Shown here piece by piece: positions 9,872-49,467 of a stretch of DNA of 64,000 bases. Position 1 is the first letter of the stretch. Each line of letters starts with the position of its first letter. Position numbers and translations under genes: made by a program. Where the stretch lies: contig CM097886.1 of assembly GCA_044892525.1 (NCBI GenBank), positions 111,042,001-111,106,000 of the forward strand, written 5' to 3'. The notes under the pieces are model-generated. The model was not told the origin of the DNA and did no database searches. It was given only the letters and a program-made list of their open reading frames with translations. Source of the stretch: Schmidtea polychroa. Lineage: Eukaryota.

Positions 9872-9943
<72 letters not shown>

Positions 9944-10035: not shown

Positions 10036-10091
<56 letters not shown>

Positions 10092-19774: not shown

Positions 19775-22350
19775 TCAGTCAATTATATGATAAAGTGAAT
19801 AACACTGACGTTGAGCATTCAGACAGAGGTGAACATCACATGAACTGCATTTAATGTTGCTGCGGCAATCATGTCTTCGGGTGCTGCAGTATGTGCATCG
19901 CTTTCTGTCTTCTGTGAATACTGGTAAATGTTGTGGTGTAGGACAAGCAGCATTACTCGGTCGAATTTTCTTTGAAGGAGGATTGGCGGATGTCGCTCTC
20001 TGACGACTACTGTAACGACCAGTGAGAGATAGCGCCACAGATCTGCGAAAGTCAAGAGCCTTCATTAGGTTGCTCTCATTTAGTTTCTTGAAAATGACAT
20101 AGGAATTACACACACCAATATCCAGTAGGTCAAAGAAAATGCGTAAGTAGAACTTCACTTTTGACCTTTAAGTAAAAAAATCAAAACAAACAATGTATGT
20201 AGAGTTATAATGTGCACAGAGGCTGTAAATTTTTGCTTACCTTCGGTCGATTCCATATGCCTCTTTTCGTTGATCTGCAATGTCAACACCTCCCATAATT
20301 GAATTATACGTCGAAACCATTTTTGGAACAGTTTTAGGCATTTTACCAGCCGTACCTCTTCGTCTTCTCATAACGGTCGTGGTTTCAAAAGGAGTCTCAT
20401 AATTGGATAGAATAGTGACAGGACGTTTGTCCATCCACTTTATTGATGAGATACTGCCATTAGTGCTAACGTAAGAGTAAATATCACCCTCTTTCATACG
20501 CTTGTTAGCACGTACATCATCTGCAGGGCCGGATTTAAGCATTTGTTGGCCCTAGGCAAAGGAGCTTTTTGGGGCCCTCAAAATTAATTAGTATATTTCA
20601 AGGAAATTATGTAGGTTATTTTATTTGCTAAAAGTATTTAAGAAATAATTATTTACTACCTATTTATATTTTGAAATATATTTATTAAATAATTCCGTTT
20701 AAAAATAAGATACATATGTCATGTCAAAAATATAATTTTACAAAACTTTCTTTCTAAATTTTTCTAGAGCATATTGATCAATCAATGAATCAAAATCAAT
20801 AGCTTTCAATTTATCAATGTTACAAGATAATAAGGCCAAATTATTCAAAATTTTTTGACTCATCGTTGACCTCAAAAAATTTTAATCAGCTTCAATTTTG
20901 AGAAACTTCTTTCGCCAGTGCAATTAGCAATCATTAGACACAAAAAATTCTTAAAATTGTTTCCAAATTTGGAAAAGCAATTTCCAAAATTTTTCCTTAA
21001 TTATCTTGTAGAAACTCAAATGATTTGGATGATCATTTGGCCAATCGTTCGATTTTGGGGCCCCCAAAACTGGGGGCCCCTAGGCAGTGCCTAGTCTGCC
21101 TATAGGTGAATCCGGGCCTGATCATCTGGCAAGTGTTTTCGTGATGTTATGATAGTACCAATAGCTTGAACACTGTTTTCACGTAAATAGAAAAACAGCT
21201 TTACCGAGGAGAAGAAATTATCCATTGCCAGGATACAGTTTGTGTTGTGAAGACTCTTTGCCAAATGCATTACCACACTTCCACCTAGACCAAATTGGCG
21301 ACCTTCATTATAAACTTTGCCTTGATACATGTCAAGTTCATGAACATATCCAGAGTGTGATGATGCTCGGACCCACATTTTGAATCCCCAGGGTATGGGT
21401 TTTCCTTTGACGTACTGTTTCATTGCACTTTTCCCAGTGAACTTAATCATGTGTTCATCAATTGACATTTCATTTTCCATTTCCATTGCAGCTTGAAACG
21501 CTTTGTTGAAATGGTTTATTAGTGGACGTACTTTGTACGCTCTGTCGTATTCCGGATTGTCTTTATGTGGCTGAAGAGCATTATCACTAAAGTGCAAATT
21601 CTTTAGGATAAATTCAAATCTTTTCACTGTCATCACATCGGCAATTGCATCTACATGGAGATCTCTGTCAGTTGACCAATAGTCACGGAGATTTGGTAAT
21701 CTGTTATAACCCATAATTATGCATATACCCAGAAATGCTTTTATCTCTTCACTTGTTACATCGAATATAATTCCCTGTTGTTCAATAATGAGTGTTACAA
21801 GATCTTCAAAATTTGTTGTGATTTCAAATGAAGAGTAGGCAGTTGCAGGTTCAATATCCACTTTCACTTTTCCGAAATCTACTAGTTTTGTAGGTGTAGG
21901 GAATTCCAACAATCTCCGTTTTTTCTTTTGCCATTTTATATTTAAAGCCGTTGAATGCAACACATCTGAATCACGTTCTGAAATGGCAACAGAAACAAAT
22001 ATACGAATTCGATTGAAATATATTAGGAAATCGAAATAATGTACCTGACTCATCAGATAAGTCTTTAGATTCCTCATCAACATCTATGTCTAAAAACATA
22101 AAAATAAAACTTTGGTCACCATAAATGGTGATTTTAATTTGTAGCTAGCTTATATACCTTCTATTATTGTTTCGTCGATACCCATTTCAATGTCATTTTC
22201 AATCAGGGTAACATCTTCCTCATCAAGGTTTTCCATTTCGTCCTCAGAATTATCCGCCCATAAAAGTGAAATTGCTTTTTGAGCACAGGCTCTTCTTGAG
22301 TGAACAATTCTTTTTCTTTTGACATATCCTATAATAAAAATCATAAAAAT
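19775..22350 (-). pseudogene. Intron-containing piggyBac transposase disrupted by a hAT MITE
   Basis: DDD triad SIDEHMIKF / AMDNFFSS / MGGVDIADQ; C-terminal CRD RKRCTYC..C..CDVHLC..C; GT-AG introns 22157-22090, 22044-21978 and 20240-20166 restore the frame. Confidence 0.92.
20524..21120 (-). mobile_element. Non-autonomous hAT deletion derivative inserted in the piggyBac transposase
   Basis: TIR CAGGGCCGGATT / AATCCGGGCCTG; exact 8-bp TSD ATCATCTG; internal minus-strand remnant of the hAT dimerisation domain (FPNLETILRI...GERSFSKLKLIKNFLRSTMSQ). Confidence 0.93.
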
Positions 22351-22642: not shown

Positions 22643-23506
22643 CTGAAGTACAAAAAAATAGTATTTAAGTTATTTTAATAGTCATTATGTTAGTTAAATC
22701 ATTGTGAAATAATATAATATGAAAAACGTTTTCAAAAACAAATGATTACCTAAAATAATCTGAGTAGAAGATAATGTCTCAAAATTCTGAAAATTTCAAA
22801 TATTTAACGAGATCGTATTAACTAAAACAATGTTTTTATAGACACCAAAGATTCCAATGATAATCATTAGGCATATGAGAGTATTTTTATCAAAGGGCGA
22901 AACCAAATTATGTTTATTTATTGGTGAACTATTTTGTTGAAGACGTGGTACATATATATATACCACAGAACGTCAAAGGGTTAATGCATTTCAAAATCAA
23001 ACGCCACTCGCATTACTCACTCGATCTCCTCCTCGAAGTTACGTTTAAATTCAGTGATTTTAGTAAACCTCACCTTCTTGAATGGGTGTGTACGTGTCTC
23101 ATTAATGTTATCAAAGGTAGGATTTGATCGAAATCATTGTAAGTTTAGGAAAACTTATATTAGAAATTACTAATTTATAAATCAATAAAAGCGATTCAGG
23201 ATTATTTTATAGAAGGAGTAAACGGTTGATGTTTCGCTGATTTACCATGATTCACGCCGACATAGGAAATCCCTTTAATCATTAATCGTTATCCGCAGTT
23301 TTAACCAAACCAAAAAAATGTTTTATTCCCCCAATTTCAATTAATTTCATCTTGGTAATCCAATCATTAAATTTTAATACATATTTATTATATAAATCAT
23401 CATAATTCGAGTTTCCGCTCTACCACTAAATCTAGTAAACAATTTGTGTGATATCTATAGTGTGATTTCAACTTGGTAAATCATGTTTATAATTATGCTT
23501 GATGGA

Positions 23507-24141
23507 TGTAATGTACAGTTATTTTTGTTAATATTTTAGTATTCACAATTAGGAATTGTGTATACTAAGATATAAAATACAACCATCTGGGAAATATAGT
23601 AAATGACAAAAAAATTTTAAAAAAAAAATCAATGTCGAGTTGGAAATAGAAAATTAAAAATTGAGAATTAACAAATCTTATTTGAATTTTACTGCAAAAC
23701 AGATTGTGAGTATTGTGAAGAAAGGAGAAAGAAGTTTTCAGAAAACGCAGATACTGTTTCATCAATCAGTTGTTTTTAATCGAACTATATTTGTACTTGA
23801 ATCATATTTCTCGATATATAAATCTCCTAAATAGGTTATAATGCAGAGAAAATCAAAGAAAATATTTTGAACTACAATTTACGAAAATCCAAGATTAACA
23901 CGAGGTTTTATTTCTTTGTTATAATAAAGTTTAAAAGATGTAACATTTTATTATTGTTTTGCGTTATATTCGTAACTTTATATTGTTTGTAATTATTATA
24001 TTTTGAACATAGCACGCACCCCGATTGTCCCGCTACAAGTTTTAACGGCGACTCTTTCGGGCTCTACAAAATCTTCAACAAAATAACATAAATTAACAAT
24101 AATTAACAATAATAACGATTCAAACTACAACTTCCATTACA
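23507..24141 (+). repeat. 5' LTR (635 bp)
   Basis: Near-identical to 28900-29598 apart from a 55-bp indel, an A-run indel and a few substitutions. Confidence 0.96.
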
Positions 24142-24143
24142 AC

Positions 24144-24155
24144 TGGTGTCAGAAG
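24144..24155 (+). promoter_or_regulatory. Primer-binding site TGGTGTCAGAAG (tRNA-Leu-type, inferred)
   Basis: Starts 2 nt after the LTR end; complementary to a tRNA 3' end ...CUUCUGACACCA. Confidence 0.8.
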
Positions 24156-24281
24156 AAAAAATATACACAACACGACACTCGCATTCGACGATTTTTTTTC
24201 AATCACTACGCCTTTCAGCATACTTTTTATAGAAGTATAAAGGATAGTGACTCTTTTGGCTGAACACAGTAAGCCATATCC

Positions 24282-25517
24282 TTGAACAATCTCATTTTTT
24301 GTAACACAACAAGCAATAAAAAAACATCAACAAACCAATTAATGGCATCAAACCAAACAAATCCAACAAACATTTCACAACCCCTCAATAATACTGAAAA
24401 CACACACATGATGGAAAATACGAATTACTACTATAACCCAAACACTAGCAAAGATAATACACACACCATAAACTCAGTAATTAACCCAGGAACAAACATC
24501 CCAAACTACTTTAGTGACGAAAATGGGACACCCCAAAAATGGCTTGAATTTGCTAAATTAACCCTAACCATATCGGGAATAAAGTCAACGAAAACGCTAT
24601 GTTCAAACATTATCGCTGCTCTCCCAAGTAGAAAATTGAACGAAATAGCTGACCAAATTGAGGAAATTTCAAAGAGCGAAGACCCGTTCAACAAGCTTTG
24701 CAACGTCCTAACAAACAAAAACAAAATCAACAGGAGGCAAATGCTGGAATCATGTCTCAACAACACACAACTTGGCGACAATAAACCAACAGATTTCCTT
24801 CGCCAACTAAAACAAAAATTGGAGTACCTCCAACCAAACATCACTAATTCGGGATCAAACGAATTAGTAAAAGAATTTTTCATGCGAGCAATGCCGCCCG
24901 AAATAAGACGTATCCGCGCAGCCAGTAGCAATTCGGACGTAGAAACGCTAGCAGACATAGCAGATAAAATCAATGAAGAAATTTATCCTACTATATGCAG
25001 CACACAAAACTACAACAGAAATAAAACTAATTACAACACCCAACCAACCAACAAAAACACAGAACCAAATGAAACAACAAATCGATAAATAAACACTTTG
25101 ATCAGCAAATTCGACGAAATAATTGTCGAAAACAGACAAATAAAAGCGGAACTAGCCGAAATAAAAGAGAAATACAACAGGCAAAACTTCAATCCAAACG
25201 AAAACAGAGACCCATTCAACAGAAACAATTTCAACACAGACCAACTATCATACAATCATAACAGACAAAACTACGACCGACCACCCAACGAAAACAATAG
25301 ACAGAACTACAGCCACAGACAATTCCCAAACGGTCACTACAGAAACCGATCAAACTCACCAAATCGATACAACAATTACCGAAATAGCAGCCCAGAAAGG
25401 AATTCAAGAAAAGATTTCCTAAACAAAAACCACTGCTACTTTCATAACAAATTCGGCGACAAAGCATATAAATGCATAAAACCCTGCGAATTCCACAAAA
25501 CAGAGCAGGAAAACTAA
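24282..25517 (+). CDS. gag, interrupted by one in-frame TAA (25086-88)
   Basis: Two ORFs in the same frame; LGDNKPTDFL...FFMRAMP capsid-like region; C-terminal CYFHNKFGDKAYKCIKPC knuckle. Confidence 0.9.
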
Positions 25518-28500
25518 AAATGTCACCATTGATAGCACCCACATTTGGTGACAACAATAATACTTTCACGGTGCATTCAAACAATACAGATTTTCTAATC
25601 GACATCGGTTCCGTGATCTCCCTATTACCACACTACTTATACACAAATGCAAAAAACTACAGAAAAGTCACTAACCGCTACCAATGGCTCCAAAATTAAA
25701 ACATTTGGCCAATATACAATAACACTCACAATAAATTCAAAAAAATACAGTTGGCCATTCACAATCGCAGAAGTACAACAGTCAATAATCTGGGCCGATT
25801 TCTTTGCAAATTACAACCTAATAGTGGACTGTCGAAACAAGAAAATAGTCGAAAACAACAAAACAGACAAAGAAACAGCCAGGAACACAACTTCAAACTC
25901 TTCGAAAGTAGACATCGGCGTGATTCAAACAAGTAGACCAACTATCAAAACAATTAAAACTATTGAACATGTACCAGAAATAGTCACACTACTGGCAAAA
26001 TACAATAAACTCTGCGAACCAGTAACTTTCGATGGAAATTCAAACCACACTACTGAACACGCAATACTGACAAACGGAAACCCAGTCCACTCAAAAGTAA
26101 GACCACTGGATCCAAAAAAAATAGAAATCACAAAAAATATATTTAACGAACTGTTGGAAAATAATATAGTAAAACATTCAAACTCAGAATGGTCTTCAGC
26201 ACTGATGCTAAAACAAAAAGCTAACGGGGAATGGAGAGCTTGTGGCGATTACAGACTCCTGAACAAAATAACAGAGCCCGACGGCTATCCATTACCGATA
26301 ATAAAAGACATAATAAATCGACTAAACGGCGCAAAATATTTTTCAAAAATTGACCTACAAAAAGCATATCATCAGATCCCAATTAGAAAAGAGGACATTA
26401 AAAAGACAGCAATAACAACACCGATCGGCATGTTCGAATACAACCGAATGCCTTTCGGTCTACGAAACGCCGCAGCAACTTTCCAACGATTCATGGATCA
26501 AACAATGAAAAACAACAAAAACACAATCGCTTATCTGGACGACATCCTAATAACAAGCCCAGACAAAGAAACACATCTAAAGGACGTGGAAAAAGTGTTC
26601 AAAACGCTGGACAATACAAAACTAAAAATAAACACTCAAAAGTGCGAATTTATGAAAACGGAAATAAATTCCCTTGGTCACACGCTAAACGACAAAGGAA
26701 CACAACCAATAGAAAACAAAATAAACAATATAAAAAACTACAAACTGCCGACAAACACAAGAGAGTTGGGGAGATTTCTAGGAATGGTAAACTTTTATCA
26801 TTCTTACATCCCAAATTGCAGCAACCTACTGGCACCACTAAACGACATCATCAAAACCAAACGAAACGTAACAATAAACTGGACACAACAAACAACCGAC
26901 ACATTCAATAAAGCCAAAGAAAGCCTATCAACGGCAACTCTACTCGGTTACCCAGATCCAGAACTAGAGTATCAACTAACTACAGACTGTTCTGGTTTTG
27001 CAATGGGCGCAACAATTTTCCAAGAAAATAAATTCGGCAAACTACCACTGGGATTTTTCTCGAAAAAACTAAAATCACATCAAACAAGATACTCAACATT
27101 CGACAGAGAACTCCTAGCAATACACGAAGCAATCAAACACTTTCAACATTTACTCGAAGGACGAACATTCAAAATATTCACAGACCACAAACCGCTAACA
27201 AACGCAATAGAAATGAAAAACCCTTCACCAAGGCAGATCAGACAAATCAATTTCATTTCACAGATCAACTGCACAATAAACTACGTAGCAGGAAAATCAA
27301 ACATAGCAGCAGATGCTCTATCCAGAATTGAAAGTGACATAAACGCCCTAGAATTCGGAGAAATAATTGAATTGGATCAAATCAAATCCAGACAAACCGA
27401 TACATTAAGCAAACTGCCTACTAAACACAGCCTGAAACTACAGGAACTCGACGGAATATGGCACGATGTCTCCAACGAAAGCAACAAACGAATCCTACTA
27501 CCCGAAGAACTCCGACAAGACTGCATAAAAAAGATACATACTATCAATCATCCGGGAAACAAAATAACATTCGAGTTAATACATAACAAATATGTATGGC
27601 CTCACATGCGGGAAGACATCAAAAATTACGTCAAAAGTTGCCACAGCTGCCAATTAAATAAAACAACAAAAAAACCTAAAACACAAAAAGTAAACTTCCC
27701 AAGCAGTGAAGCGTTTGAAACAATACACACATACGTAGTAGGACCACTACCACCAAACGACAACTACAAATATCTACTAACAATTATAGACAGAAAAACC
27801 AATTGGTTCGAAGCGATCCCAATAAAAGAAATCACAGCAAAAAATATCTGCGAAATGATCAAACTAAACTGGATAGCTCGTTACGGCCAACCGAAAACAA
27901 TCATAACTGATCAAGGCAGACAATTCGAATCAGAAATGTTCAAAATACTGTGCAATAAATACAATATCAAAAGAAATCGAACAACAGCTTACAACCCACA
28001 ATCAAATGGGAAAATCGAACGGTTCCACAGAACATTAAAAGAAAGCATCAGGACAAAAGCCAATGACCAAAACTGGTTAAACCAACTTCCAACAATATTA
28101 ATCGGACTAAGAAATAGCCTAAATTCAACAGATAATGAAAGTCCAGCATACAAAATTTTAGGAAAAGCAACAAACTTGCCATCACTTAAATCAGATAATA
28201 ACAAAAACACCGAAAACAGCAAACAAATAACAAACAAAAATAGCGAAACCACCGAACAGAAACCAAAAGGAATTTTAAAAAGAAGACCGGACTCCGAATT
28301 AGACGGAAAAATAGTATTAACAACAGATTTCATCCTAATAAAAAAACCATTCACAAAAGGATTCGAATCCAAATACGAGGGTCCATTCAAACTCCTAGAA
28401 GTTAACAAAAACGTCGCCACAATAATCAAAAACAACAACAAAATGAAAATAAACATAAGACGAATAAAACCCTATCACCAAAACAAAAACCCACCAAACA

Positions 28501-28658
28501 ACTCACCGCAAGACAAAACACAAACCCAAACACAAACAAAAAAACAACCAATTCACAAAAACATCACATTCAACCACAAAAATTCAATCAAAATATTCGA
28601 CAAAGACACAATACTGGCTCCACTATACAAAAAACGCTACAGCGAATGCTTTAAATAA
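25472..28658 (+). CDS. pol (protease-RT-RNase H-integrase), in the -1 frame to gag, with one frameshift near 25645
   Basis: FLIDIGSVISLLP, WRACGDYRLLN, YLDDILI, LTTDCSGFAMGA, HHCC zinc finger, ITDQGRQFES, NGKIERFHRTLK. Confidence 0.95.
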
Positions 28659-28885
28659 AAACACAAACATACACAAACAAACACACGCAAACAGCGTTAA
28701 TTGTACAGTTTTTATTTTTCTTGTAAATACAAAACAAAATGTAAATTTTTAATTTTATTGAAGTTGTAGATACAAGGAAACAGAAACAAAATACACAAAA
28801 ACATATAAAACATACGAAAAAAAAGGTTATTGAATGTAATTTTTTTTACGTTACTTTTTATTGATTCATGTTAACCTCCGGTTTT

Positions 28886-28896
28886 AAAGGGGGAAG
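28886..28896 (+). promoter_or_regulatory. Polypurine tract AAAGGGGGAAG
   Basis: Lies 3 nt upstream of the 3' LTR. Confidence 0.9.
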
Positions 28897-28899
28897 TTA

Positions 28900-29598
28900 T
28901 GTAATGTACAGTTATTTTTGTTAATATTTTAGTATTCACAATTAGGAATTGTGTATACTAAGATATAAAATACAACCATCTGGGAAATCCAGATTTTTAA
29001 TAAAAATCTATATAGCGATAATTTACTATAGTAAATTATCGCTATAGTAAATGACAAAAAAATTTTAAAAAATCAAAAAAAAAAATCAATGTCGAGTTGG
29101 AAATAGAAAATTAAAAATTGAGAATTAACAAATCTTATTTGAATTTTACTGCAAAACAGATTGTGAGTATTGTGAAGAAAGGAGAAAGAAGTTTTCAGAA
29201 AACGCAGATACTGTTTCATCAATCAGTTGTTTTTAATCGAACTATATTTGTACTTGAATCATATTTCTCGATATATAAATCTCCTAAATAGGTTATAGTG
29301 CAGAGAAAATCAAAGAAAATATTTTGAACTACAATTTACGAAAATCCAAGATTAACACGAGGTTTTATTTCTTTGTTATAATAAAGTTTAAAAGATGTAA
29401 CATTTTATTATTGTTTTGCGTTATATTCGTAACTTTATATTGTTTGTAATTATTATATTTTGAACATAGCACGCACCCCGATTGTCCCGCTACAAATTTT
29501 AACGGCGACTCTTTCGGGCTCTACAAAATCTTCAACAAAATAACATAAATTAACAATAATTAACAATAATAACGATAAAAACTACAACCTCCATTACA
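28900..29598 (+). repeat. 3' LTR (699 bp) containing a perfect 36-bp palindrome at 29011-29046
   Basis: Direct repeat of 23507-24141. Confidence 0.96.
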
Positions 29599-31098
29599 AT
29601 GGACATCTAGTATTACTGTGAAAATCTACTTATGTTGGCATTTTACTACTATATGGAGTTTGTGCTGATAGGGGCGGACGGATAAGCAAAACGACTAATC
29701 CTCGAATAATAGGAATTATTAACAAAAGCATCTATTATCATCAACAATTCGTAATTTTGTTTATCTGATCGAACTAAACTAATTTCCTGCAAATCGATGC
29801 CGATGAATATTGTGTGATTGTTTAATCAATAGTTATTTATGTCGACAATTCGATGATGTCTGTTTGACCGGATGTTTCATACTGAGGGCTATGCACTAGA
29901 AATTGATAAAACTACGACCTGGAAAAATCCGAAACCTACATGGACGTTATCGATCTTTGTTCCTATAGACAATTTGTATACTGATCAAGAGAACGTGGAT
30001 GTACTTTTAGAAGTCGAAACTAGCGATCTTGAAATGTAATCGAATTTCTTACTGAACGATGCGAAAGTACTCTAATCACCAAATGGAAAATTTAATAACA
30101 GACTCGGCTTCGATGTTGAACTTTTGGAAAATAAAACGCAGTCTCTGAAGGTCGTCTATCTCATGGAAATTTTCTCTATTCGAAATGTTGGAATTATAAT
30201 TCAATTGTCCTACAGTAACTCTTTCAACTGGAATATCTAGCCGTGCTGCCACTCGATGACGATACCCTGTCGGTTTCGATCAATCGTTCCATAATCATAA
30301 GGACTCCTGGTCTCGCAACTTATCACTATTCACCCAGCGACCACCGGCACAAGTGCCGACTATCTCCAGACCACCACGATAGACGGGTCAACCCATATTC
30401 ATTTTTAATAAAACACAAAAATTGATAATAATCCCGGAAAACTTAATAATAATCAATTAAAGTTATAAATGGAATTTAAATTATTTGTATCAAACTTACC
30501 CATCGACCATACCCCTTGGTTCTGAATATGATACTCTTGATTCTACTATTACTCAGTGTCATGACCTACAACTCTCTATGTACAATTCGTCGGAAATCTC
30601 ATTCAACTGACATTCTGTGTTCACGCTATCTCTACATCATCATATATACACCATTTATCTTCATCTTACATTCAGCATTTCATGCATATTCAATTCGAAC
30701 GTTACCATTTCCCTCATCGTCATCATCCAAATCGATCATGGTTATCATACTCAGAATCTGCAAGCGGTATATTCGCTGGATACGTGAAGAGAGAAGACAT
30801 AATGTGGTGGTTTTTAGATAATATTTTTCTCCATGACAATTACAATAATATTTATTAGTAGGTAGTTAGGAGCTCCCTGCCGCAATTACCCCCTGGGGGG
30901 GGGGTCTGCGGCAACTTTTTATTAAGCAATTGCGGCAACTCAAATTTTTTTGCTTTCAGGGAATTTTGGTCCAAATTGTTTTTTATCAGACTATAGCGAG
31001 GGGGTCTCGATGGTCCTGGGATTTTCAATACAAAATTTTTTTTTTCAATAGAAAAAGCTGGTCTTCAATAAAAAAGCATGGAATTTATCAGACTAGAG

Positions 31099-31680
31099 CA
31101 AGGGTGGGCACGCATGGGTTCAATAAGAGCCATTTTCCGAAAATTTATTTTTTACAGAGCCACCATAGTAAAGTACATATTTTTTTTTATTTCATTAATT
31201 TGATTAAAGAGACTTAAACGCTATTAAAAAAAAACAAAATAATTATTTCAAACATTAAGTAACAAACATAAAAATCCATTAATAAAAAGTAATAAAATTT
31301 CTTGAATTAACGAAGACTTTTGGTCAAATCTTTGAAATTTGGTGTATACTTTGTTAAAGCTGTTCGCAGCAATTCTGTAAGATGCTGATTGGTCAACTGT
31401 GAACGATATTTCGACTTTACGAACTTCATTGTGGAGTACAAAGATTCACAACAATATGTTGTACCAAAAATTGAAATTAGACGGCAAGCAGCTTGTTTTA
31501 AGTGTGGATATTTTGCCTCTGGTACGAGTTTCCAAAATTCAACTATAGAAGTAGATTTATGGTGCATTTGCAAAGCCTGGTCCTCTTTCATATCTAATAA
31601 CTCCAATTCCCCAACCGCTTTTTTAACAAGTATTACTTCAGAAATTGGAAATCCATCTTCAATAATATCACAAATAGTCA
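31099..31680 (-). mobile_element. 3' fragment of a Buster-type hAT inserted in the left TIR
   Basis: Terminus CAAGGGTGGGCA after GACTAGAG; dimerisation domain FWKLVPEAKYPHLKQAACRLISIFGTTYCCESLYSTMKFVKSKYRSQLT; absent from the right TIR. Confidence 0.88.
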
Positions 31681-31859
31681 CTATAGTGAGGTGGGTCTCC
31701 TTGGTCCTGGGATTTTCAATACAAAAAAAATTTTTTCAATACAAAAACGATGGTCCTGGGATTTTCAATACAAAAATCCGACTACCAGTAAAAAAGCATG
31801 GAATTTTCAGACTATAGTGAGGGGGTCTCGATGGTCCTGAGAAAAAGGTGGTCTACTCT

Positions 31860-32400
31860 AAAAAACGTGGTAAATTTTTTCAATTAAAGTAACTAATGGT
31901 TCTAAAAAATTAAATTACAGTAAATTATGGTCAAAAATTTTAAATTAAAGTAAATTATGGCTCAAATTTTTAAATTAAAGTAAATTATGGCTCAAATTTT
32001 TAAATTAAAGTAAATTATGGTCCTAAAAAATTAAATTACAGTAAATAATGGTCAAAAATTTTAAATTAAAGTAAATTATGGCTCAAATTTTTAAATTAAA
32101 GTAAATTATGGTCCTAAAAAATTATGGTCAAAAATTTTGAATTACAGTAAATTATGGTCCAAATTTTTCAATTACAGTAAATAATGGTTCTAAAAAATTA
32201 AATTACAGTAAATTATGGTCAAAAATTTTGAATTACAGTAAATTATGGTCCAAATTTTTCAATTACAGTAATCAATGGTTCTAAAAAAATTAAATTACAG
32301 CAAATTATGGTCCAAATTTTAAAATTAAGTATTCAATGGTAAAAATTTAAATAAGTAAATTAAAGTAATAATTTTTAAATAAGTAATGTAATAAGTAAAT
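31860..32400 (+). repeat. ~21-bp minisatellite (AAATTACAGTAAATTATGGTC-type)
   Basis: Tandem variants; inverted counterpart at 34403-35330, further copies at 50880-51180 and 56780-56880. Confidence 0.95.
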
Positions 32401-32629
32401 TAAAGTAAGATTTTAAAATTTATTAACAAATAATAGAAGGTGTTTGAGAATTGAAATTTTTTAATGAAAATTTTTATGAAATAATTTTTTAAGTAATTTT
32501 TAATAGAAATTTTAATGAAATATTTTTCAATGGTAACTTTTAATGGAAATTTTTATGGAATAATTTTTTAAGTTAATTTTTAATGGAAATTTTTATGAAA
32601 TATTTTTCAAAGACAAATTTTAATAATAA

Positions 32630-33270
32630 TTCAACAACAAACCAACAACTTAGTACCAACAACCAGTAACTTACGAACATGTATTAACAACCAGATACCT
32701 ACAACCAGTTACCTGATACCAAGTACCAACAACCAAAAACATGCAACCAACTAGGTACCAAGTACTAACAATCAAAAACATGCAACCAACTAGGTACCAG
32801 ATACTAACAATCAACTAACAACCAGGTACTAAGCATTATCAACCAACTACTAAGTACTAAAAACCAACAACAACCAGCTAACAACCAGGTACCACCTACC
32901 AAGTACTCACAACCGTCAACAACCAGGTACTAGATACCAAGTACTAACAATCAAAAACATGCAACCAACTAGATACCAGATACTAAAAATCAACTAACAA
33001 CCAGGTACTAAGCATTATCAACCAACTACTAAGTACTAACAACAAACCAACAACTTAGTACCAGCAACCAGTAACTTACGAACATGTATTAACAACCAGA
33101 TACCTACAACCAGTTACCTGATACCAAGTACTTACAACTAGTTACTAACAACCAGATACTTACAACTAGATACTAACAACTAGTTACCTGATAGCAACCA
33201 ACTAGGTACCACCTACCAAGTACACACAACAAACATCAACCAGATACCTACAACTAGTTACTAACAACCA
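32630..33270 (+). repeat. Strand-asymmetric complex repeat (CAACAACCAG/TACTAA modules)
   Basis: A/C-rich tandem modules; reverse-complement family at 49500-50730. Confidence 0.92.
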
Positions 33271-34084
33271 GTGTTGTTCCTAATTCTAAGCTGTAGGAAT
33301 TGTAGTCTATGATCGATTTGTCTCTTTCATCCGTTGAGTGTCCACTTTCATCTTCTGAGAGACTCTTTTCATTTTCGTGGATTTCATATATTTCTTCTGG
33401 GACATTTTTATTGTCCAAGTCCACTTCTTGTTCGTTTTCATTCCAATCAGGATCTGGTTTTTCTTGTGTTGTCTTTTTGGCTTCTGTTTCTTGATCTGCC
33501 TCATTATTTGGGGGACTTGTTATATGTTTGCCGAGTTTGAAGGATCTAGGTACTCCAACAATTGATTTATTCATCATGAAGTTGAAGAATTTTATTGTGA
33601 TTCTTTGATCTCGTATGTCATCGAATTCATATGTACTGAGTACTTTTTCTATTGAATTGATAAGCTTTTCATCCTCTTCCCTGAGTATTGGTTTGATCCT
33701 TTTTGTCCATTCTTCTGGAATTGTGTAATTTTTGAGGACTTCACGCCAGTTTATATTGCTGAGAGATTTGCACGCCTTTCTGATGATAAAATCTGTTAGA
33801 ATTATTGATGTATTCATATCTTTGAGTGTCTCACCCTTGTAGATGGTATTTATGGTGAAGAATTTCCGTGCTATGTTGAAGTCAGTTTTTGTGGTTTGTG
33901 ACTTTGTGATTCTGTTATAATTTTCCCTCGTAAACCATGGCAAGGTTTTTTCTCTTTTCTTATTTGCAATTTTCTGATTTAAGTCTTTAATAAACTTTGT
34001 TGCTCGGACATTATTCTCCTTGTGAGCCAATGACCTGCCCCCCGTATGGGGGCAATCTTGTAAGATTTTAAAATTTATTAACAA
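33254..34084 (-). CDS. Orphan ORF fragment (276 aa) carried inside the long-TIR element
   Basis: Stop-free in AT-rich DNA, with an acidic C-terminus; both ends run into element repeats; no recognised motif. Confidence 0.5.
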   Translation of the reverse strand: MLINFKILQDCPHTGGRSLAHKENNVRATKFIKDLNQKIANKKREKTLPWFTRENYNRITKSQTTKTDFNIARKFFTINTIYKGETLKDMNTSIILTDFIIRKACKSLSNINWREVLKNYTIPEEWTKRIKPILREEDEKLINSIEKVLSTYEFDDIRDQRITIKFFNFMMNKSIVGVPRSFKLGKHITSPPNNEADQETEAKKTTQEKPDPDWNENEQEVDLDNKNVPEEIYEIHENEKSLSEDESGHSTDERDKSIIDYNSYSLELGTTLVVSN

Positions 34085-36589
34085 ATAATAGAAGGTGTTT
34101 GAGAATTGAAATTTTTTAATGAAAATTTTTATGAAATAATTTTTTAAGTAATTTTTAATAGAAATTTTAATGAAATATTTTTCAATGGTAATTTTTAATG
34201 GAAATTTTTAAAAAATTAAATTACAGTAAATTATGGTCAAAATTTTTGAATTACAGTAAATTATGGTCCAAATTTTTCAATTACAGTAATCAATGGTTCT
34301 AAAAAAATTAAATTACAGTAAATTATGGTCCAAATTTTAAAATTAAGTAATCAATGGTAAAAATTTAAATAAGTAAATTAAAGTAATAATTTTTAAATAA
34401 GTAAATTATTACTTTAATTTACTTATTTAAATTTTTACCATTGATTACTTAATTTTAAAATTTGGACCATAATTTACTGTAATTTAATTTTTTTAGAACC
34501 ATTGATTACTGTAATTGAAAAATTTGGACCATAATTTACTGTAATTCAAAATTTTTGACCATAATTTACTGTAATTTAATTTTTTAGAACCATTATTTAC
34601 TGTAAATGAAAAATTTGGACCATAATTTACTGTAATTCAAAATTTTTGACCATAATTTACTGTAATTTAAATTTTTAGGACCATAATTTACTTTAATTTA
34701 AAAATTTGAGCCATAATTTACTTTAATTTAAAAATTTGAGCCATAATTTACTTTAATTTAAAATTTTTGACCATTATTTACTGTAATTCAATTTTTTAGG
34801 ACCATAATTTACTGTAATTGAAAAATTTGGACCATTATTTACTGTAATTCAAAATTTTTGACCATAATTTACTGTAATTCAAAATTTTTGACCATAATTT
34901 ACTGTAATTCAAAATTTTTGACCATAATTTACTGTAATTTAATTTTTTAGAACCATTATTTACTGTAATTGAAAAATTTGGACCATAATTTACTGTAATT
35001 CAAAATTTTTGACCATAATTTACTGTAATTTAAATTTTTAGGACCATAATTTACTTTAATTTAAAACTTTGAGCCATAATTTACTTTAATTTAAAAATTT
35101 GAGCCATAATTTACTTTAATTTAAAATTTTTGACCATTATTTACTGTAATTCAATTTTTTAGGACCATAATTTACTGTAATTGAAAAATTTGGATCATTA
35201 TTTACTGTAATTCAAAATTTTTGACCATAATTTACTGTAATTCAAATTTTTTGACCATAATTTACTGTAATTTAATTTTTTAGAACCATTAGTTACTTTA
35301 ATTGAAAAAATTTACCACGTTTTTTAGTGTAGACCACCTTTTTCTCAGGACCATCGAGACCCCCTCACTATAGTCTGAAAATTCCATGCTTTTTTACTGG
35401 TAGTCGGATTTTTGTATTGAAAATCCCAGGACCATCGTTTTTGTATTGAAAAAATTTTTTTTGTATTGAAAATCCCAGGACCAAGGAGACCCACCTCACT
35501 ATAGTCTGATAAATTCCATGCTTTTTTATTGAAGACCAGCTTTTTCTATTGAAAAAAAAAATTTTGTATTGAAAATCCCAGGACCATCGAGACCCCCTCG
35601 CTATAGTCTGATAAAAAAAAATTTGGACCAAAAATCCCTGAAAGCAAAAAAATTTGAGTTGCCGCAATTGCGTAATAAAAGTTGCCGCAGACCCCCGGGG
35701 GGGGGTAATGGCGGCAGGGAGCTCCTAACTACCTACTTTTATTCATATATAATAAAATAAAGATAAAAATAAAATTCAAATTTTACTCTTCTCCGTTTGA
35801 TGATTTCTCTAGTTTCAAAATTGTACTGGATTTGGTAGGCTGTATTAGAGTTTTTTCGGAGTTAAAATTATAGTTTTTAAGATTTCCTGTTTAATAAATT
35901 TTTCGGAGTTGCTAAATCGTACCTGTTCAAAATTTTTAGAAGTTAAGGAAATCAACCAAGTGTCTCTCTTATATAGAAATTTTCGTCCAATCAGTACTTA
36001 GTTCGTGTGTATTTTAATATTTTTTCTTATTTTTGTGTTTTTAATTGCTTTTCTTGTGTTATTTAATTGTTTTTCTTTTGTTAATTTATTAATTAATTTA
36101 ATTTATTTATTTTTCCTTATTTTTGTTAATTTCTGTTGGCTATTTTGTTTGCAATTTGCTGTTTTACTTTTTCCCTGTTTTTATTTGTTTTCAATGATTA
36201 ATTTTTATTTTCTTGTTTATATTTTACTCTTAGTATTTATTTTTATTCTGATTATTTATTTTCTTTTGTTTGTTAGTTATGGTTGGGTGTTTTTCCTATT
36301 TGTGGTTTATTTGTTATTGTTCGTATTTTCAATGATTTTGTTTTAATTGTTCTCTTCTTTTATTACCTATTTTTCCTACATTTGTTTGATTCACTCAATT
36401 TTATTTAGTACAGGATTTTTTTCTTTATAATTAATTTATTAAAAAGGGGAATTTTAGCGATTGGTTATTATTTTAATTTTTATAACTTCCAGACCAACAA
36501 ATCCATCCAACAATAGTCTGACTGAATCTCTTAATATTTTGAATATCACTGGTTTTGAATTTTTTTGTTCGTTCTCATTATGAATGGTC

Positions 36590-37200
36590 TATTGGGGATG
36601 ATCAAGTAGATCCAGTCTCCCCTCAACAGCTGACATTCTTATATTAAATTCTCCTTCCAGAGCTGCCATTCGCCAATTCACAGCTGCGACTTCTTTTTCC
36701 GCAGCTGTCACTGTTATATATTAAATTCTGCGACTTTTACCTACAAGCCTCCCACCGTTCCTTGCAAAGCTATTAGCTGTCACAATATTTGTGCCTGTAT
36801 AGGGTCAACTGGTGGCACACCTAGATGAACAGGTGGCACTTGTGTCGGAATATGAGGTACATGGGTTCTTAGCTGGTGCCTCTTGAGGTCAGTGAAGTGA
36901 AGGATCTATTGCATACTATGCACTGAACCTTCACTCTCTTGCTGAAATTTGAGATATCGAGGCCATGATCGATGTTGCATGCGACTGCTCCTCTCCCTCA
37001 CAGTTGCAATATCTTATGCAACCATGGGCTTTTGCTGCATTTCTTTTTTTCACCTTTTGGTATATATAATAATACAAACACTTTTTTAAACTATTTTTAC
37101 AAAAATTAAAATTTTCAATATTATACGTATAATTTAAATTAAATATTTTTCTTGCAATGATAAAATTATTTATTATGAAATCAATATATTTTAACGTATA
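36590..37200 (-). pseudogene. Zinc-finger/Pro-rich/coiled-coil cassette, copy 2
   Basis: ...DLKRHQLRTHVPHIPTQVPPV...AAEKEVAAVNWRMAALEGEFNIRMSAVEGRLDLLDHPQ*, with stops and a frameshift. Confidence 0.7.
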
Positions 37201-37319
37201 TTTAAAACACTAAATATATTTGCAACAATATTCAAGTCATATAGGTAATTCTAACAATGCTGAATTGAGCGAGCTGATAATTATGAGTATTTCTTTTTTG
37301 GCTGAGGATCTACTGGGGA

Positions 37320-37740
37320 TGCTCCAGTGCATCGACCCTCGCCTCAACCGCCTCAATCCTTTGTATTATTGTTGCATGGCCAACTGCCATATCAGCTCCC
37401 ATTTGTTGTTGCAGCTGTAATTTATCTGCTGCCATTGTTTGTTATATTTCTTGCAGCAGCTGCATTATTGCTGCATTATCAACTGGTTCATTTTGCGTAT
37501 CACCTAGTGCTGATTGCAGATTACCGACATTCACCACCACTTCGGCAACTGGGAGATTACTTTGTGCAGGTACCACCACCTCCCCAGCTACAATCACTTC
37601 TTGTATTACCACCACTTCGGCAACTGGAAGATGATCTGGGAGCGGCTCATTCACCTCTGGTGGTATGGGATGTTTATTTTTCATATGCCGCGCCAGCCCA
37701 GTGGCTCGTACATACCTGGGACACAGGTGACAATGCACCT
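37320..37740 (-). pseudogene. Diverged zinc-finger/coiled-coil paralogue
   Basis: MHCHLCPRYVRATGLARHMKNKH (C2H2-like); after a frameshift ends RIEAVEARVDALEHPQ*, similar to the copy 2 end. Confidence 0.65.
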
Positions 37741-37769
37741 TAGTATTAAAAAAATATTTTTTAATACTC

Positions 37770-38520
37770 TATTATCTTTTTGGCAATTGCCACCGGCTTG
37801 GTTGCAGCAGGTAATGCAACCTCCAGCTATTGCTTGTAGAAGGTCTGGAATCACCTGGAAGAACAGGTGGCACTTGTGTCGGAATATGAGGTACATGGGT
37901 TCTTAGCTGGTGCCTCTTGAGGTCAGTGAAAGTGAAGGATCTATTGCATACTATGCACTGAACCTTCACTCTCTTGTTGAAATTCTTGGTACATCTTGAG
38001 GACCTATTGGCACACCTGGAGAAACATTGGAACTTGTGTCGGAATATGAGGCACATGGGTTCTTATCTGGTGCCTCTTGAGGCCAGTGAAAGTGAAGGAT
38101 CTATTGCATACTAAGCACTGAAACTTCACTCTCTTGTTGATATTTGAGATATCGAGCCTATGGTCGATGTTGTATGCGACTGCTCCTCTCTCTCACAGTT
38201 GCAACATTTTTTTTGCAACATCTTAAGCAACCATGGTCTCTTGCTGCATTTTTTTCACTTTTTGATATATCACGTTTTGGTATATCATCTTTTGGTATAA
38301 TACAAACACTTTTTTAAACTATTTTTACAAAAATTAAAATTTCTAATATCATACGTGAAATTTAAATTAAATATTTTTCTGCCAAGGATAAAATTATTTA
38401 ATATGAAATCAATAAATTTAAACGTATAATTCTGGGATCATTTACTATTCATTACGCGACATCTAAATGAACAGCAAAATGCTTTACGAAGACGACCCTC
38501 GTACCCAATGTAGTCTGGCT
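37770..38520 (-). repeat. Zinc-finger cassette, copies 3 and 4 (tandem)
   Basis: Two tandem ~170-bp finger-coding segments (37860-37990, 38030-38150) followed by the shared upstream region. Confidence 0.85.
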
Positions 38521-38590
38521 GAATCTTTAATATTTTGAATATTACTGGTTTTGAATTTTTTTTGTTCGTTCTCATAATAATGCTCTACTG

Positions 38591-38785
38591 CAGTGTTTCT
38601 CAAACTATGGGTCGCGAAAGAATTTTTGGTGGGTCGCGATGACTTATGGAAAGATCTACAAATATAAATTTTGGAAGTTTAAGCCTTTTAAATTTATTTA
38701 ATCTTTGTCATGTGGGTCGCAATAAAATTTTTGGCATGAAATGTCAAAAATTTGGGTCGTGATCAAAAATGTTTGAAAACCACTG
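38591..38785. mobile_element. hAT (Charlie/Buster-type) MITE
   Basis: TIR CAGTGTTTCTCAAAC / GTTTGAAAACCACTG; exact 8-bp TSD CTCTACTG with central TA. Confidence 0.92.
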
Positions 38786-38829
38786 CTCTACTGGGTATGG
38801 CGTAAATAAAATATGGCATAAATAATTTC

Positions 38830-39360
38830 CCTCACTGGAGTTTGAGTTGCATTCAGACAATATCTCAGAAATTTCTTACTCTTATTGCACATTGTAAGCA
38901 AATAAAGATCAAATTCATTGATTTATAACAGTTTGTAAATGAATCTTTGGATAATGCAGTAAAAACAATAAATAGTTTACCAATAACAAATGCAGCATTT
39001 ACGGGAACATTACATGATTCAAAAAATATTTTTCCATACAATTTTACCACAAAGCTTGAACTTCTACGAGAAACCAGAAAATTGCCATTAATTTTGGAAG
39101 GAGTGACACAAGCCGCATATGATAAAACAGTCAACAAATGGTCTGAAACCGGATGTGAAACCCTTTTAGATTATATGATAATATATCTGAAGTTGATGTT
39201 ATGATGATATATATGTTGGCAGATTATTTTCAACAATTCAGAACTAAAGCATTAGCTCATAATGGATCGGAACCTTTGAATTTTTTCGGAATTCCAGGAA
39301 TAACATGGTCATCGGCATTAATGTCATTGGATAGACCCATAGACGTAGATCGTTCGAAGA
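38830..39360 (+). pseudogene. Protein-primed family B DNA polymerase remnant (Polinton/Maverick/adintovirus-type)
   Basis: IKFIDL*QFVNESLDNAVK, KNIFPYNF, CETLLDYMIIYLKL, MLADYFQQFR, EPLNFFGIPGITWSSAL. These parallel the pPolB motifs RFIDS..FM.SSL..LV, KGIFPY, TLGDY.DLYLK.DV.LLADVFENFR and LDPAHYYTAPGLSWDAML. Confidence 0.8.
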
Positions 39361-42791: not shown

Positions 42792-45700
42792 TTATGGGTC
42801 CTTATAAGTGTGCTCTATATATATATGGTAGCTACTCTGTATTGCAGCCGTGCATGCTATCTTTGCAAGGGCGTTGGTTTCAGATTTAGAAAGGCCTTTC
42901 GTTTTTAGGATAGAGTCATTTAGGTTGTCCCAAGTTCCAAGAGTTCCTATGACAAGGGCAGACAGAGTAATCTTACATTTATGGAGGTGACCTAACTCTA
43001 TGGCCAGGTTTTTATATTTGTCGAAGTTATCAGATTTAGCTCTTTTGAAATTGTCCTTAGATTCATATGGTACTTTGATATCTAGGATGTGTATTAGAGT
43101 TTCTCTCAGATCTTATTAGGAGGTCAGGTCTCAGAGTAGTTACAATACCTATTGGTGGGCATTCGATATCAAATTTGAAGTTTAAACAGGTCAGGTAGTC
43201 AGAGATGGATCGTAGTACATTATTGTGCTTATTTCGCCTGGCGTTAATTTTGGCTGGGCAATGATTAAAGATATGTGCCTGTGTCTCAGGATGTGCATGA
43301 CAGTGCCTACAGAGGATAGATTTCTTATTTTTAAGGCGTTCTGGGGAGTAGTTGAGTTTAAGAAGGTTATTTCTTGCACGGATAAGGAAGAGGTATTGGG
43401 GATCAGTCAGTTTATCTGTTTTAATGAAGAACGCAGCGGTGCTACTGTCACTAATAGTCTTAGAGATAAAACCTTGACATTTCAATTCAAACAATTTCTC
43501 GGCATGGTAGAGTCCTATGAGGGAATGCAGTTCAGATGACGTTTCATGGATATTATCTCTACTAAAGTAATTTATTCTGTTTTTATATTTAACCTCAAGC
43601 TTTAGGATATCATCTACAATTTTTATTTTGGCAGTTATCCCATACTTAAGTAAGAGTCTATTTGAAAATTTTCTGAATTTAGAAAAGAGGGAGAAAGTTG
43701 GGTAGTTGTTTGTAATATCACCATTTAACCAGGCAATTGCTGCTTCCAGGAGGCCTTTTCCTCTAGCTTCTGTTAGCTCAGATATAACCATATGTCGGAA
43801 ACCTAGGTCGTCAGAGTTGAGTATCCTAATAAGATGCACTATACTTTGTATTAGGTATTCGTCTATGGCAGATGTGAGACCAATACCCCCTAGCTTAATG
43901 GAGGCGTATAGAAAGTTGTTGTTAAGTTGCATAATTTTGTCCCCCATTGCGACTCTAAAGATCTCTTTTAATTTCTGGTCATATCCAAGGTGGAGTAATT
44001 TGCCTCTTTGTTGCCTTTTCGAGTCAAGTGTCATGTGGTTGATTACACAGTTTCTAAGAGTGAAGATAAGTCTAGAGTGTATAAAGATTTTGTAAGAGGA
44101 GATTTTTTGAGCCGGATGTAGGTGAGATTCAAAGATTTTAACTGTGTCACTTAACGCAAGATTAAGTCGTTCCTCAATGTTGTGGCGATTCTTAGAAGAG
44201 AAGTCTACACCAAGATATCTATATAGGTTATCCTCATCAATAATTGGGATCGATTCATTATATAGTTTTATTGGAGGGGGTTTTTCGCTGGTTTATAAAG
44301 AAGTAGCCAGATTTAGAGGGTTTGAATTTCAGGTTGACGTTTCCGGCGAGTTCGACAGTTTCAGCTAGTGCATTAGAGATGGATGTGTAGGAGCTAGATA
44401 TAAGGACGATATCATCCGCATAGGCTACCTATATTATGTTCATGGAGGAAAAGGGGTGGTTAATCAAGATGCGTTTAAGTATAAAGTCAATACATAGGCA
44501 GAAGAGGGTCATGGAGAGGGGCATCCTTGTTTTACCCCCTTATGGATGGGTACTGATTGTGATTTTTCTCCTTCACATTCAAAGATTGTACGGACATTAG
44601 AGTACATGTCTTTGATAAGATTTATAGTTTTATCATGTAGTCCCATTTGGATAAGTGAGTGCCATATAAGATCATGGGGAATAGATCCGAAAGCATCGGT
44701 GATGTCTAGCCATATGATATGGAGTTCACTTTTGTTCCTATGTGAGTAATCTTTAATCAAGTGTAGGACTACATTATGTTCGGCACAACCATCGGGTGCA
44801 CCTCTGGCTTTCTGGTTAGGGGATATCAGGTGGCCTTCACTAATCCACTGGAGGATACGATTATTTAGGAGAGAAGAGATATAGGTCTCCAGGAACCTGC
44901 TTCATGACTAGATTCATTTTTACCGTTTTTTAAGATCAGCTTAGTTCTAAAGGTTTTCCAGCTTACAGGACATAAAGAGGATTCAAGAATGCTATTAAAG
45001 ATGGCCTGTATTAGTGTAAGGTCAGGGCTTATACGTATCCAATCAGACAGAGTAATTTTATCAATTCCAGGTGCAGTACTATCAAGCGAATTAATGGTCA
45101 GCCGAATATCTTCAAGAGTGGTATGGGCAGAGGTTGGAAGGAGAGACCTAGCAAGTTGGACGTTGGCGAGCTTTTACCACTAAAAAGGTTAAGGATATTA
45201 TTCATAGTAGGCCTATGTATACTTTGTGTATCATTTATTATCTTAAGTATTTCATCTTTAGGTTTTATTTTAAAACGGAATCTTTTAACAGATAGGAGTT
45301 CTCTCTCATTTTTTATTTTTTGTTGGTGGCATCTGCTGGCTTGGGAATTTGGTATTTATGAGGGTTAATGTTGCCATTTATCTTTTCTATCTCAAGTAGG
45401 GCAGATTGGGCATCTATTAGGTTCTGTGTAAGCTGCTCAGTTAAATTAATTAAAAAGGCTTTGTATTTTCTAATGTCACTCGTGTCAGATCTGTCCTCAA
45501 TAAAATGTCTTATAATACGTTTGATTTCAGTGGTCATTTCGGTTTTGTTCGGTATAGTAAGTGGGATGTGGGTGTTTAAGCATGAGATGAGGTGAGTCAC
45601 ATATATCGCAGAATCAGAGTGTGAGTAGCATCTAGGGTATTCAATGTTTGATAAAGAGAAGGATATAGGTGATACAATATTTTGTAGATGCAGTATTGTA

Positions 45701-48700: not shown

Positions 48701-48720
48701 GGGCCGGCGAATCGGCATTT
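42792..48720 (-). mobile_element. RLE-type non-LTR retrotransposon (NeSL/R5/LIN-like), frameshifted
   Basis: N-terminal P/T/N-rich region, several CCHH fingers (46040-46738), Ulp1-like segment (45313-45954), RT (QGCP, YADD at 44411-22), CCHC knuckle CRHCHAHPETQAHIFNHC, and endonuclease LRPDLLI...ILDIKVPYE...KYKNL...LVIGTLGTW. Confidence 0.92.
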
Positions 48721-48910: not shown

Positions 48911-49467
48911 GTTTTTCCGACATTTTTTAAAAAAGGAATTTGTTTAGTAATTTTAAACAAGCAATTAATTTTTTCTTTTAATATATTGTTAGTTTCATTA
49001 ATTTCTTTTCTTATTTGTAAAAGGTTAATATCAATTTCGTTTCTATCTTTTTCATTATAATTTTCAGGATTAAAATTTTTTTCATTGTTAGAATTATTAT
49101 AATTAAATTCAGCATTATGGTAATTTTTATAATTATAATTACAATTAAATCCTTTAGTATAAAAATTTTTGTTATTGTCATTTTTTACTTTATTATTTAA
49201 ATAGTTTTTACTATTATAATTTTCAGGATTAAAATTCATTTCATTTTGAGCATTATTATAATTAAATTCATCATTATGGCAATTTCTATAATTATAATAA
49301 TTTCCCCCATTTTTCTTATTTTCAGGATTAAGATTTATTTCATTTTTAGCATTATTATAATTAAATTCATCATTAAGGTAATTCCTAGAATTATAATAAT
49401 TTCCAACATTTTTACTTTGTTTAGATATTGTGCTATTTTTATTAATATTAATTTCAGAAATAGGCAT
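48911..49467 (-). CDS. Asn/Tyr-rich internally repeated ORF of unknown function
   Basis: About 185 stop-free codons in very AT-rich DNA; NY.N..EFNYNN..NE.N.NPEN unit repeated about 3 times. Confidence 0.4.

What the first reader, a model, noticed from the sequence alone, without database searches (positions are those of the whole stretch)
30857..35737. Candidate non-autonomous Polinton/Maverick with modular TIRs longer than 1.3 kb
Seen: exact inverted termini starting AGTAGG, identical TTTATT flanks, and arms with a fixed hierarchy (unique ~130-bp end, ~60-120-bp units, ~21-bp array, then an AT spacer and a strand-asymmetric repeat on the left). There is no transposase. Two more arm copies (49500-51548, 56452-56988) keep the same module order. 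Knowledge: 5'-AG(T) termini with 6-bp TSDs are the Polinton signature, whereas Foldback/MULE elements usually make 9-bp TSDs. Inference: a mini-Polinton family whose expanded terminal arrays may act as replication or binding origins, and which carries different cargo ORFs.
Basis: partly seen in the sequence, partly recalled or inferred. Interest (0 to 1): 0.8.

Follow-up and report, generated by a model that had tools for sequence, protein, structure and literature searches.

The report
Gene-less Polinton/Maverick remnant with modular ends
This 4.9-kb stretch is most likely a gutted copy of a Polinton (Maverick), a virus-like mobile element of animals: it kept its long repeat-filled ends but lost its core genes, a known kind of remnant with unusually elaborate ends.

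Summary
The ends are real: inverted termini 5'-AGTAGG...CCTACT-3' at 30857/35737 with a 6-bp duplication TTTATT; the arms match at 918 of 935 aligned bases. AGTAGG//CCTACT is a catalogued Maverick end pair. A broken Polinton pPolB fragment lies 3.1 kb outside the element; by hand it is 49/95 and 29/43 identical to planarian POLB-2_SM. So Polinton ancestry is well supported, although nothing ties that polymerase to these ends.

Corrections: the main array has a 30-bp period, not ~21; a hAT transposase remnant sits in the left arm; the inner right arm is a snap-back copy; copy 3 has its own diverged terminus at 56329, sharing a subterminal stem with one compensatory change.

Not shown: an amplifying 'mini-Polinton family with cargo'. 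Only one two-ended copy is present, the three interiors are unrelated, and the 262-codon inner frame has no detectable homolog. The array-as-origin idea is untested. Verdict: a new member of a known kind, moderate interest.

The parts
30851..30856 (+). Left target-site duplication TTTATT
   Evidence: chance 0.0005-0.003
30857..30980 (+). Left terminal module: AGTAGG end; heptamer TGCCGCA at +22 with inverted partners TGCGGCA at +51 and +75; inner C5/G10 stem
30981..31870 (+). ~80-105-bp units of the left arm, interrupted by the hAT remnant
31092..31679 (-). Nested hAT transposase remnant (C-terminal dimerisation domain), absent from the right arm
   Evidence: PF05699 E 6.3e-10; 588-bp gap in arm alignment
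31870..32380 (+). 30-bp array (61/91/121 higher-order), about 17 units
32400..32630 (+). AT spacer, 13% GC, 13/40/80-bp periods
32630..33270 (+). Strand-asymmetric 7/14-bp-period repeat (C 183, G 56)
33257..34059 (-). Open frame of 262 codons within the unique interior; runs into the asymmetric repeat; no homolog found
   Evidence: longer than 2000 of 2000 shuffles; blank; AF2 pLDDT 35
34060..34402 (+). Rearranged block: direct copy of the AT spacer (34060-34210) plus a snap-back inverted copy of the right-arm inner end (34206-34392)
   Evidence: right-arm allele at 2 of 2 diagnostic sites
34403..35737 (-). Right arm: 30-bp array (~30 units), units, terminal module ending CCTACT
35738..35743 (+). 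Right target-site duplication TTTATT
38806..39359 (+). Broken Polinton pPolB fragment OUTSIDE the element (internal stop, one frameshift, truncated at both ends), planarian type
   Evidence: translations; by-eye match to POLB-1_SM/2_SM in PMC3671162 supplement 3; no database score obtained
49500..51551 (-). Arm copy 2: lacks outer ~50-55 bp; 1.2-kb asymmetric repeat; 91-93% identical to copy 1 in the modules compared
48913..49467 (-). Asn-rich 99-bp-repeat frame reading inward from copy 2's arm (first ATG 49467), cut by a non-LTR fragment
56329..56985 (+). Arm copy 3: diverged subfamily (77-86% in the modules compared) with its own terminus AGTAGA and heptamers TGCAGCA/TGCTGCA

Best explanation
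An internally deleted, rearranged copy of a Polinton/Maverick family, probably of the planarian Polinton-1/2_SM type. SHOWN: Maverick-type ends, a 6-bp TSD, long modular arms, a mosaic interior without core genes, and a Polinton polymerase remnant in the same window. INFERRED mechanism: a Polinton retroviral-like integrase recognised the AGTAG ends and made the 6-bp duplication. The parent is copied from those ends by protein-primed strand-displacement synthesis. The repeat-filled arms let a single strand fold back and switch template, which gave the snap-back block and the loss of the core genes. I cannot tell whether this happened before integration (a defective genome inserted in trans) or afterwards by break repair in the chromosome, and put it at about even odds. 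The hAT piece entered one arm later. The first ~14 bases would be the polymerase/integrase site; the heptamer stem and the TGGTC arrays would be auxiliary protein-binding sites. The inner frames are most simply leftovers of the parent's terminal accessory genes.
For: TSD exactly 6 bp at the TIR boundary. Both end hexamers seen here occur in the vertebrate Maverick table: AGTAGG 37 and CCTACT 41 times (paired in Sphenodon rows), AGTAGA 28 and TCTACT 23 times (paired in Crotalus rows), against AGTAGT 713 and AGAGAG 339 (counts are whole-file occurrences, 5 rows per term seen). AGTAG occurs at 0.00085 of positions in the window. Polinton TSD is 6 bp, while IS3EU/GingerRoot have TA/TG ends. pPolB remnant 49/95 and 29/43 identical to POLB-2_SM by hand. 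Planarian genomes are rich in Mavericks. TIRs up to 1,447 bp and ~2 kb are reported. The inner copy carries right-arm alleles at 2 of 2 sites.
Against: The ends are not the canonical (AGT)2 or (AG)3. No integrase or pPolB lies between the arms, and the pPolB remnant is outside with no link to these ends. The pPolB identification rests on a by-eye comparison: Pfam, PHROGs, NCBIfam, PDB, phage tblastn and the homolog search gave no significant hit. Only one TSD is available. Repeat-filled TIRs of variable length are also typical of Galileo/Foldback. The assembly has 4 N gaps and an exact 190-bp duplication, so the interior could be mis-assembled.
Confidence: 0.8

Rival explanations
1. The ends are Polinton ends but the 4.9-kb interior is an assembly collapse; the true insertion is longer, perhaps a full-length element.
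For: Four N gaps in the window; an exact 190-bp duplication 43100-43289 = 48720-48909 and near-identical duplications beside gaps; the inner block is made of exact 132- and 149-bp copies of arm sequence.
Against: No N gap inside 30857-35737; the inner copy has 2 private differences in 187 bp and skips a 40-bp unit; the arms differ at 17 of 935 sites, so they were not collapsed.
Confidence: 0.12
2. A Foldback/Galileo/MULE-type cut-and-paste element whose tandem repeats are secondary transposase sites.
For: Galileo has long, internally repetitive TIRs with independent repeat numbers in the two arms and secondary binding sites, the same architecture.
Against: Galileo TSD is 7 bp and 7-12 bp fail here. 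The MuDR-related group spans 4-10 bp, so length alone does not exclude it, but the AGTAG ends match Mavericks in two subfamilies. No MULE or P transposase among 175 of 213 frames scanned.
Confidence: 0.05
3. IS3EU/GingerRoot non-autonomous element (also 6-bp TSD).
For: 6-bp TSD.
Against: Their termini are TA..TA or TG..CA; here AG..CT. The one-base outward shift gives TA on the left only, with a 4-bp match.
Confidence: 0.02
4. A hAT derivative mobilised by the transposase whose remnant it contains.
For: The only recognisable transposase piece inside is hAT.
Against: It interrupts one arm only; no 8-bp TSD, whereas a small hAT-like element at 38591-38785 has an 8-bp direct flank (the 8-bp rule for hAT is recalled).
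Confidence: 0.01

Closest known systems
Vertebrate Mavericks with AGTAGG//CCTACT (Sphenodon) or AGTAGA//TCTACT (Crotalus) ends (Barreat & Katzourakis 2021, PMC8097293; passages, section 7, supplement table rows seen)
   Same: End hexamers, 6-bp TSD, long TIRs
   Different: No core genes here; 4.9 kb against 12.7-24.6 kb for intact elements; arms of about 1.8-2.1 kb if the asymmetric repeat belongs to the TIR, against a reported maximum of 1,447 bp
Planarian Polinton-1_SM / Polinton-2_SM (pPolB rows in Yutin et al. 2013, PMC3671162, supplement 3 passages; reading SM as Schmidtea mediterranea is recalled)
   Same: The pPolB remnant at 38806-39359 is visibly closer to these rows than to the fly and beetle rows shown beside them
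polB-lacking, cargo-carrying polintons of Pieris (Pannagram preprint 10.1101/2025.02.07.637071; passages and section 13)
   Same: TIR-flanked polinton derivatives without polymerase, carrying other TE sequence; ~2-kb TIRs in related elements
   Different: Those keep several viral genes, their TIRs are coding, and amplification is shown; here there is no core gene and one copy
Galileo / Foldback (PMC3573991, passages)
   Same: Long TIRs with internal tandem repeats of unequal number in the two arms
   Different: P-superfamily transposase, 7-bp TSD
Repbase non-autonomous Polinton families (recalled, from no call)
   Same: Polinton ends without core genes
   Different: Could not be compared; a search for family names found 0 papers

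Membership tests
Polinton/Maverick | 6-bp target-site duplication | tested here: met
   TTTATT on both sides, 7-12 fail; one insertion only
Polinton/Maverick | 5'-AG..CT-3' ends within the known end-motif range | tested here: met
   AGTAGG//CCTACT and AGTAGA are in the published table
Polinton/Maverick | Canonical perfect (AGT)2 or (AG)3 terminal repeat | tested here: not met
   Sixth base is G or A; a minority but documented variant
Polinton/Maverick | TIRs of 100-1,500 bp | tested here: met
   935 bp aligned at 98.2%, right arm 1,335 bp; range
Polinton/Maverick (autonomous) | Encodes pPolB and retroviral-like integrase (by definition) | tested here: not met
   None inside 30857-35737; so it is a derivative, not an autonomous Polinton
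Polinton/Maverick (autonomous) | ATPase, protease and capsid genes; 13-25 kb | tested here: not met
   4,881 bp; none detected. Pfam also missed the pPolB fragment, so its sensitivity to scraps is low
Non-autonomous Polinton family | Ends shared with an autonomous Polinton in the same genome | not testable with these tools
   No host genome or eukaryotic DNA collection available; the pPolB remnant shows presence only
Non-autonomous Polinton family | Several copies with the same interior and independent TSDs | tested here: inconclusive
   1 of 3 copies in the window is two-ended; interiors unrelated; rest of genome unseen
Galileo/Foldback | 7-bp TSD (Galileo); 9-bp for Foldback (recalled) | tested here: not met
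IS3EU/GingerRoot | TA..TA or TG..CA termini | tested here: not met
hAT | 8-bp TSD (recalled) | tested here: not met

The most novel reading that the evidence does not exclude
A family of Polinton defective or satellite genomes that amplifies in trans. Its ~2-kb ends form a modular origin: a 14-bp core, a subterminal heptamer stem conserved by concerted change between subfamilies, and polar 30-bp TGGTC arrays working like iterons. The snap-back interior would be a fossil of strand-displacement replication, as in defective adenovirus/AAV genomes (recalled analogy). This would be sequence evidence for how Polintons replicate and a natural minimal substrate for mapping their cis requirements.
Probability: 0.2. 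Interest if true: 0.7.

Novelty: new member of a known kind. Interest (0 to 1): 0.42.

Why it matters
[quoted passage not shown] A gene-less copy with intact ends, plus a diverged sister end, points to which terminal bases and motifs are conserved. If the short form proves to have spread in trans it defines the minimal cis element, and such arms would be a source of satellite-like repeats in a genome of the kind where Mavericks drive size expansion. If it is a single decayed copy it is ordinary TE debris with a curious arm.

Tried and rejected
Inner 262-codon frame. Pfam 0. Word-seeded search of longer proteins 0 of 2206 candidates (near-length proteins were not searched with that tool). ESM Atlas no usable hit. 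phmmer of the 182-aa core against 1.84 billion representatives 0 at E<=0.001. PHROGs best E 0.04, NCBIfam 0. Single-sequence AlphaFold pLDDT 34.9, so no fold search was run. Three short motifs from it were absent from the Yutin alignments.
pPolB fragment. No significant hit. The one GTDB locus (20 residues, seeded by the query pattern) is treated as chance. No Atlas result was obtained. A virophage record was not in the collections. Motif searches in supplements of PMC10748475 and PMC8502044 found nothing.
Host. The RING gene gave one weak hit, so a planarian host is only an inference from the polymerase.
A 20.7-kb element from 30857 to 51551 was rejected: copy 2 is only 91-93% identical to copy 1 and the TSD closes at 35737. 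No further termini were found in the window by nhmmer.
Literature. Phrases for non-autonomous or mini Polinton/Maverick were in 1 paper, about Tlr1; Repbase family names in 0; Polinton_SM names in 1 listing, not read. No paper describing tandem-array Polinton TIRs was seen (listings; passages read only for the papers cited). Repbase, subscription papers and bioRxiv supplements were not visible and may already describe this family. Viral and metagenome contig collections stayed unchecked.
Full report
Observation. The element runs from 30857 (AGTAGG) to 35737 (CCTACT) and is flanked on both sides by TTTATT; lengths 7-12 do not match. Among 24 symmetric boundary shifts only this one combines a perfect terminal match with a duplication. 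The chance of the 6-bp match is 0.0005 (47 of 87,025 flank pairs) to 0.003 (local composition). The arms align over 935 bases with 918 identical; the gaps are a 588-bp left-arm insertion and 121, 272 and 15 extra bases in the right array.

Arm anatomy. From the end inward: a ~125-bp terminal module, ~80-105-bp units, a 30-bp array with 61/91/121 higher-order periods (not ~21), an AT spacer of 13% GC, and a 7/14-periodic strand-asymmetric repeat. TGGTC occurs 19, 26, 7 and 2 times pointing inward in the four arms and 0, 0, 0 and 1 times reversed, against about 0.56 per kb on each strand elsewhere. Most of these come from tandem amplification, so they are not independent. The left-arm insertion (31092-31679) encodes a hAT dimerisation domain (E 6e-10), so a transposase remnant is present, but it is nested and one-sided.

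Interior. A stop-free frame of 262 codons fills 33271-34059, longer than any of 2000 shuffles (maximum 210). It runs into the asymmetric repeat and has no detected homolog. Next comes 34060-34402: an exact 132-bp direct copy of the left AT spacer, then an inverted copy of the right arm's inner end that carries the right-arm base at 2 of 2 diagnostic sites. This is what fold-back with template switching would leave; mis-assembly is the alternative, since the window has four N gaps, none inside the element.

Other copies. Copy 2 (49500-51551) is 91-93% identical in the modules compared and lacks its outer ~50-55 bp. An Asn-rich frame starts about 35 bp inside its asymmetric repeat and is cut by a non-LTR fragment. 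Copy 3 begins at 56329 with AGTAGATCGTTAG. It beats 1000 of 1000 shuffles and all windows outside the known arms, though nhmmer alone gives E 0.62. Both subfamilies have a heptamer at +22 and two inverted partners: TGCCGCA/TGCGGCA in copy 1, TGCAGCA/TGCTGCA in copy 3. The stem folds with z -5.0 in copy 3 but only -1.9 and -1.3 in copy 1's arms read in the same orientation, and the right arm breaks one pair. This is one compensatory change between two lineages: suggestive only. The three interiors are unrelated to each other.

What it is. In the supplement table of Barreat and Katzourakis (PMC8097293) AGTAGG occurs 37 times and CCTACT 41 times, paired in Sphenodon Mavericks; AGTAGA and TCTACT occur 28 and 23 times, paired in Crotalus; canonical AGTAGT occurs 713 times. 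Polintons make 6-bp TSDs; the other 6-bp superfamilies, IS3EU and GingerRoot, end in TA or TG (PMC10045372 passages). Independently, 38806-39359 (+) holds a broken polymerase fragment. By hand against the untrimmed row corresponding to POLB-2_SM in the supplement of PMC3671162 (the row name was not in the passage and was matched through the named trimmed row) it is identical at 49 of 95 ungapped positions in the first piece and 29 of 43 in the second. No profile or homolog search recovered it, so there is no E-value. It lies 3.1 kb outside the element and is not linked to these ends, but it shows that this genome hosts Polintons of the planarian type. An 18S rRNA fragment confirms a eukaryote; a planarian host is an inference. 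Dugesia genomes show Maverick expansion (preprint passages) and Schmidtea Polintons are piRNA targets (PMC8532177 passages). Pfam found no other Polinton gene in 175 of 213 frames of 62 aa or more (the 38 left out were mostly alternative frames over identified genes); the two rve hits belong to Gypsy pol.

How it works. Shown: ends, TSD, mosaic interior. From knowledge of Polintons: integration by a retroviral-like integrase and synthesis by a protein-primed polymerase. Inferred: the repeat-rich arms promoted snap-back and template switching that removed the core genes, either in an extrachromosomal intermediate later integrated in trans or by repair in place, at about even odds. The one-sided hAT piece and the unequal arrays suggest that the copy has changed since its arms were last homogenised. 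The opposite orientations of the frames in copies 1 and 2 fit the end of a last gene and the start of a first gene of the parent, which would put the asymmetric repeat inside a TIR of about 1.8-2.1 kb; this is untested.

Comparison and novelty. It works like a Polinton-ended passive element. It is not an autonomous Polinton, since pPolB and integrase are absent, and membership of an amplifying non-autonomous family is unproven. Long TIRs (to 1,447 bp; ~2 kb), TIR remnants and polB-less cargo carriers are in print, and repeat-filled TIRs are known from Galileo. I saw no description of array-filled Polinton TIRs in my searches, but Repbase and non-open papers were out of reach. Papers were seen as passages, single sections or supplement excerpts, none in full. 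Verdict: new member of a known kind; interest 0.42; the bold reading (a satellite family with a modular origin) has probability 0.2.

Noticed in passing
window 30890-30905 and 35691-35704: The inner C/G stem reads C5-T-G10 in the left arm but C9-G5 in the right arm (same orientation), like a flip/flop micro-inversion of a small hairpin.
   Followed up: partly
window 34036-34054: A small perfect hairpin TGCCCCC-n5-GGGGGCA sits at the 5' junction of the inner frame and resembles the terminal stem.
   Followed up: no
window 43063-48518 (-): Degenerate non-LTR retrotransposon with a Ulp1 protease domain, RT and C-terminal zinc motif (NeSL-like by recall); 190 bp of its 3' part is exactly repeated at 48720-48909.
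   Followed up: partly
window 54937-55786: Pif1 2B-domain fragment joined to 18S rRNA fragments; possibly Helitron debris next to an rDNA pseudogene.
   Followed up: no
window 51826-53220 (-): Uninterrupted 444-aa RING-finger ORF with only one weak relative; part of it is repeated at 53647-53741.
   Followed up: partly
window 23506-29599 and 8574-11265: Gypsy element with LTRs at 23506-24142 and 28899-29599 (89% identical) and a 1013-aa pol; an older inverted relative lies at 8.6-11.3 kb.
   Followed up: no
window 38591-38785: Small TIR element with an 8-bp direct flank CTCTACTG, directly left of the pPolB remnant.
   Followed up: partly
window 20237-22083, 60123-60611, 6008-7155, 12555-12842, 171-2428: piggyBac-type, Tc1-type DDE_3, DUF4371 and Spin-doc zinc-finger fragments; dynamin exons on the minus strand.
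   Followed up: no
window 36813-38590 and 17582-18040: An unidentified ~400-500-bp repeat in three copies with a 160-bp tandem part and a weak C2H2 hit.
   Followed up: no
window 34405-35310: AATT in the 30-bp unit recurs with a weak 10-bp sub-period (autocorrelation 0.19); possibly bent DNA.
   Followed up: partly
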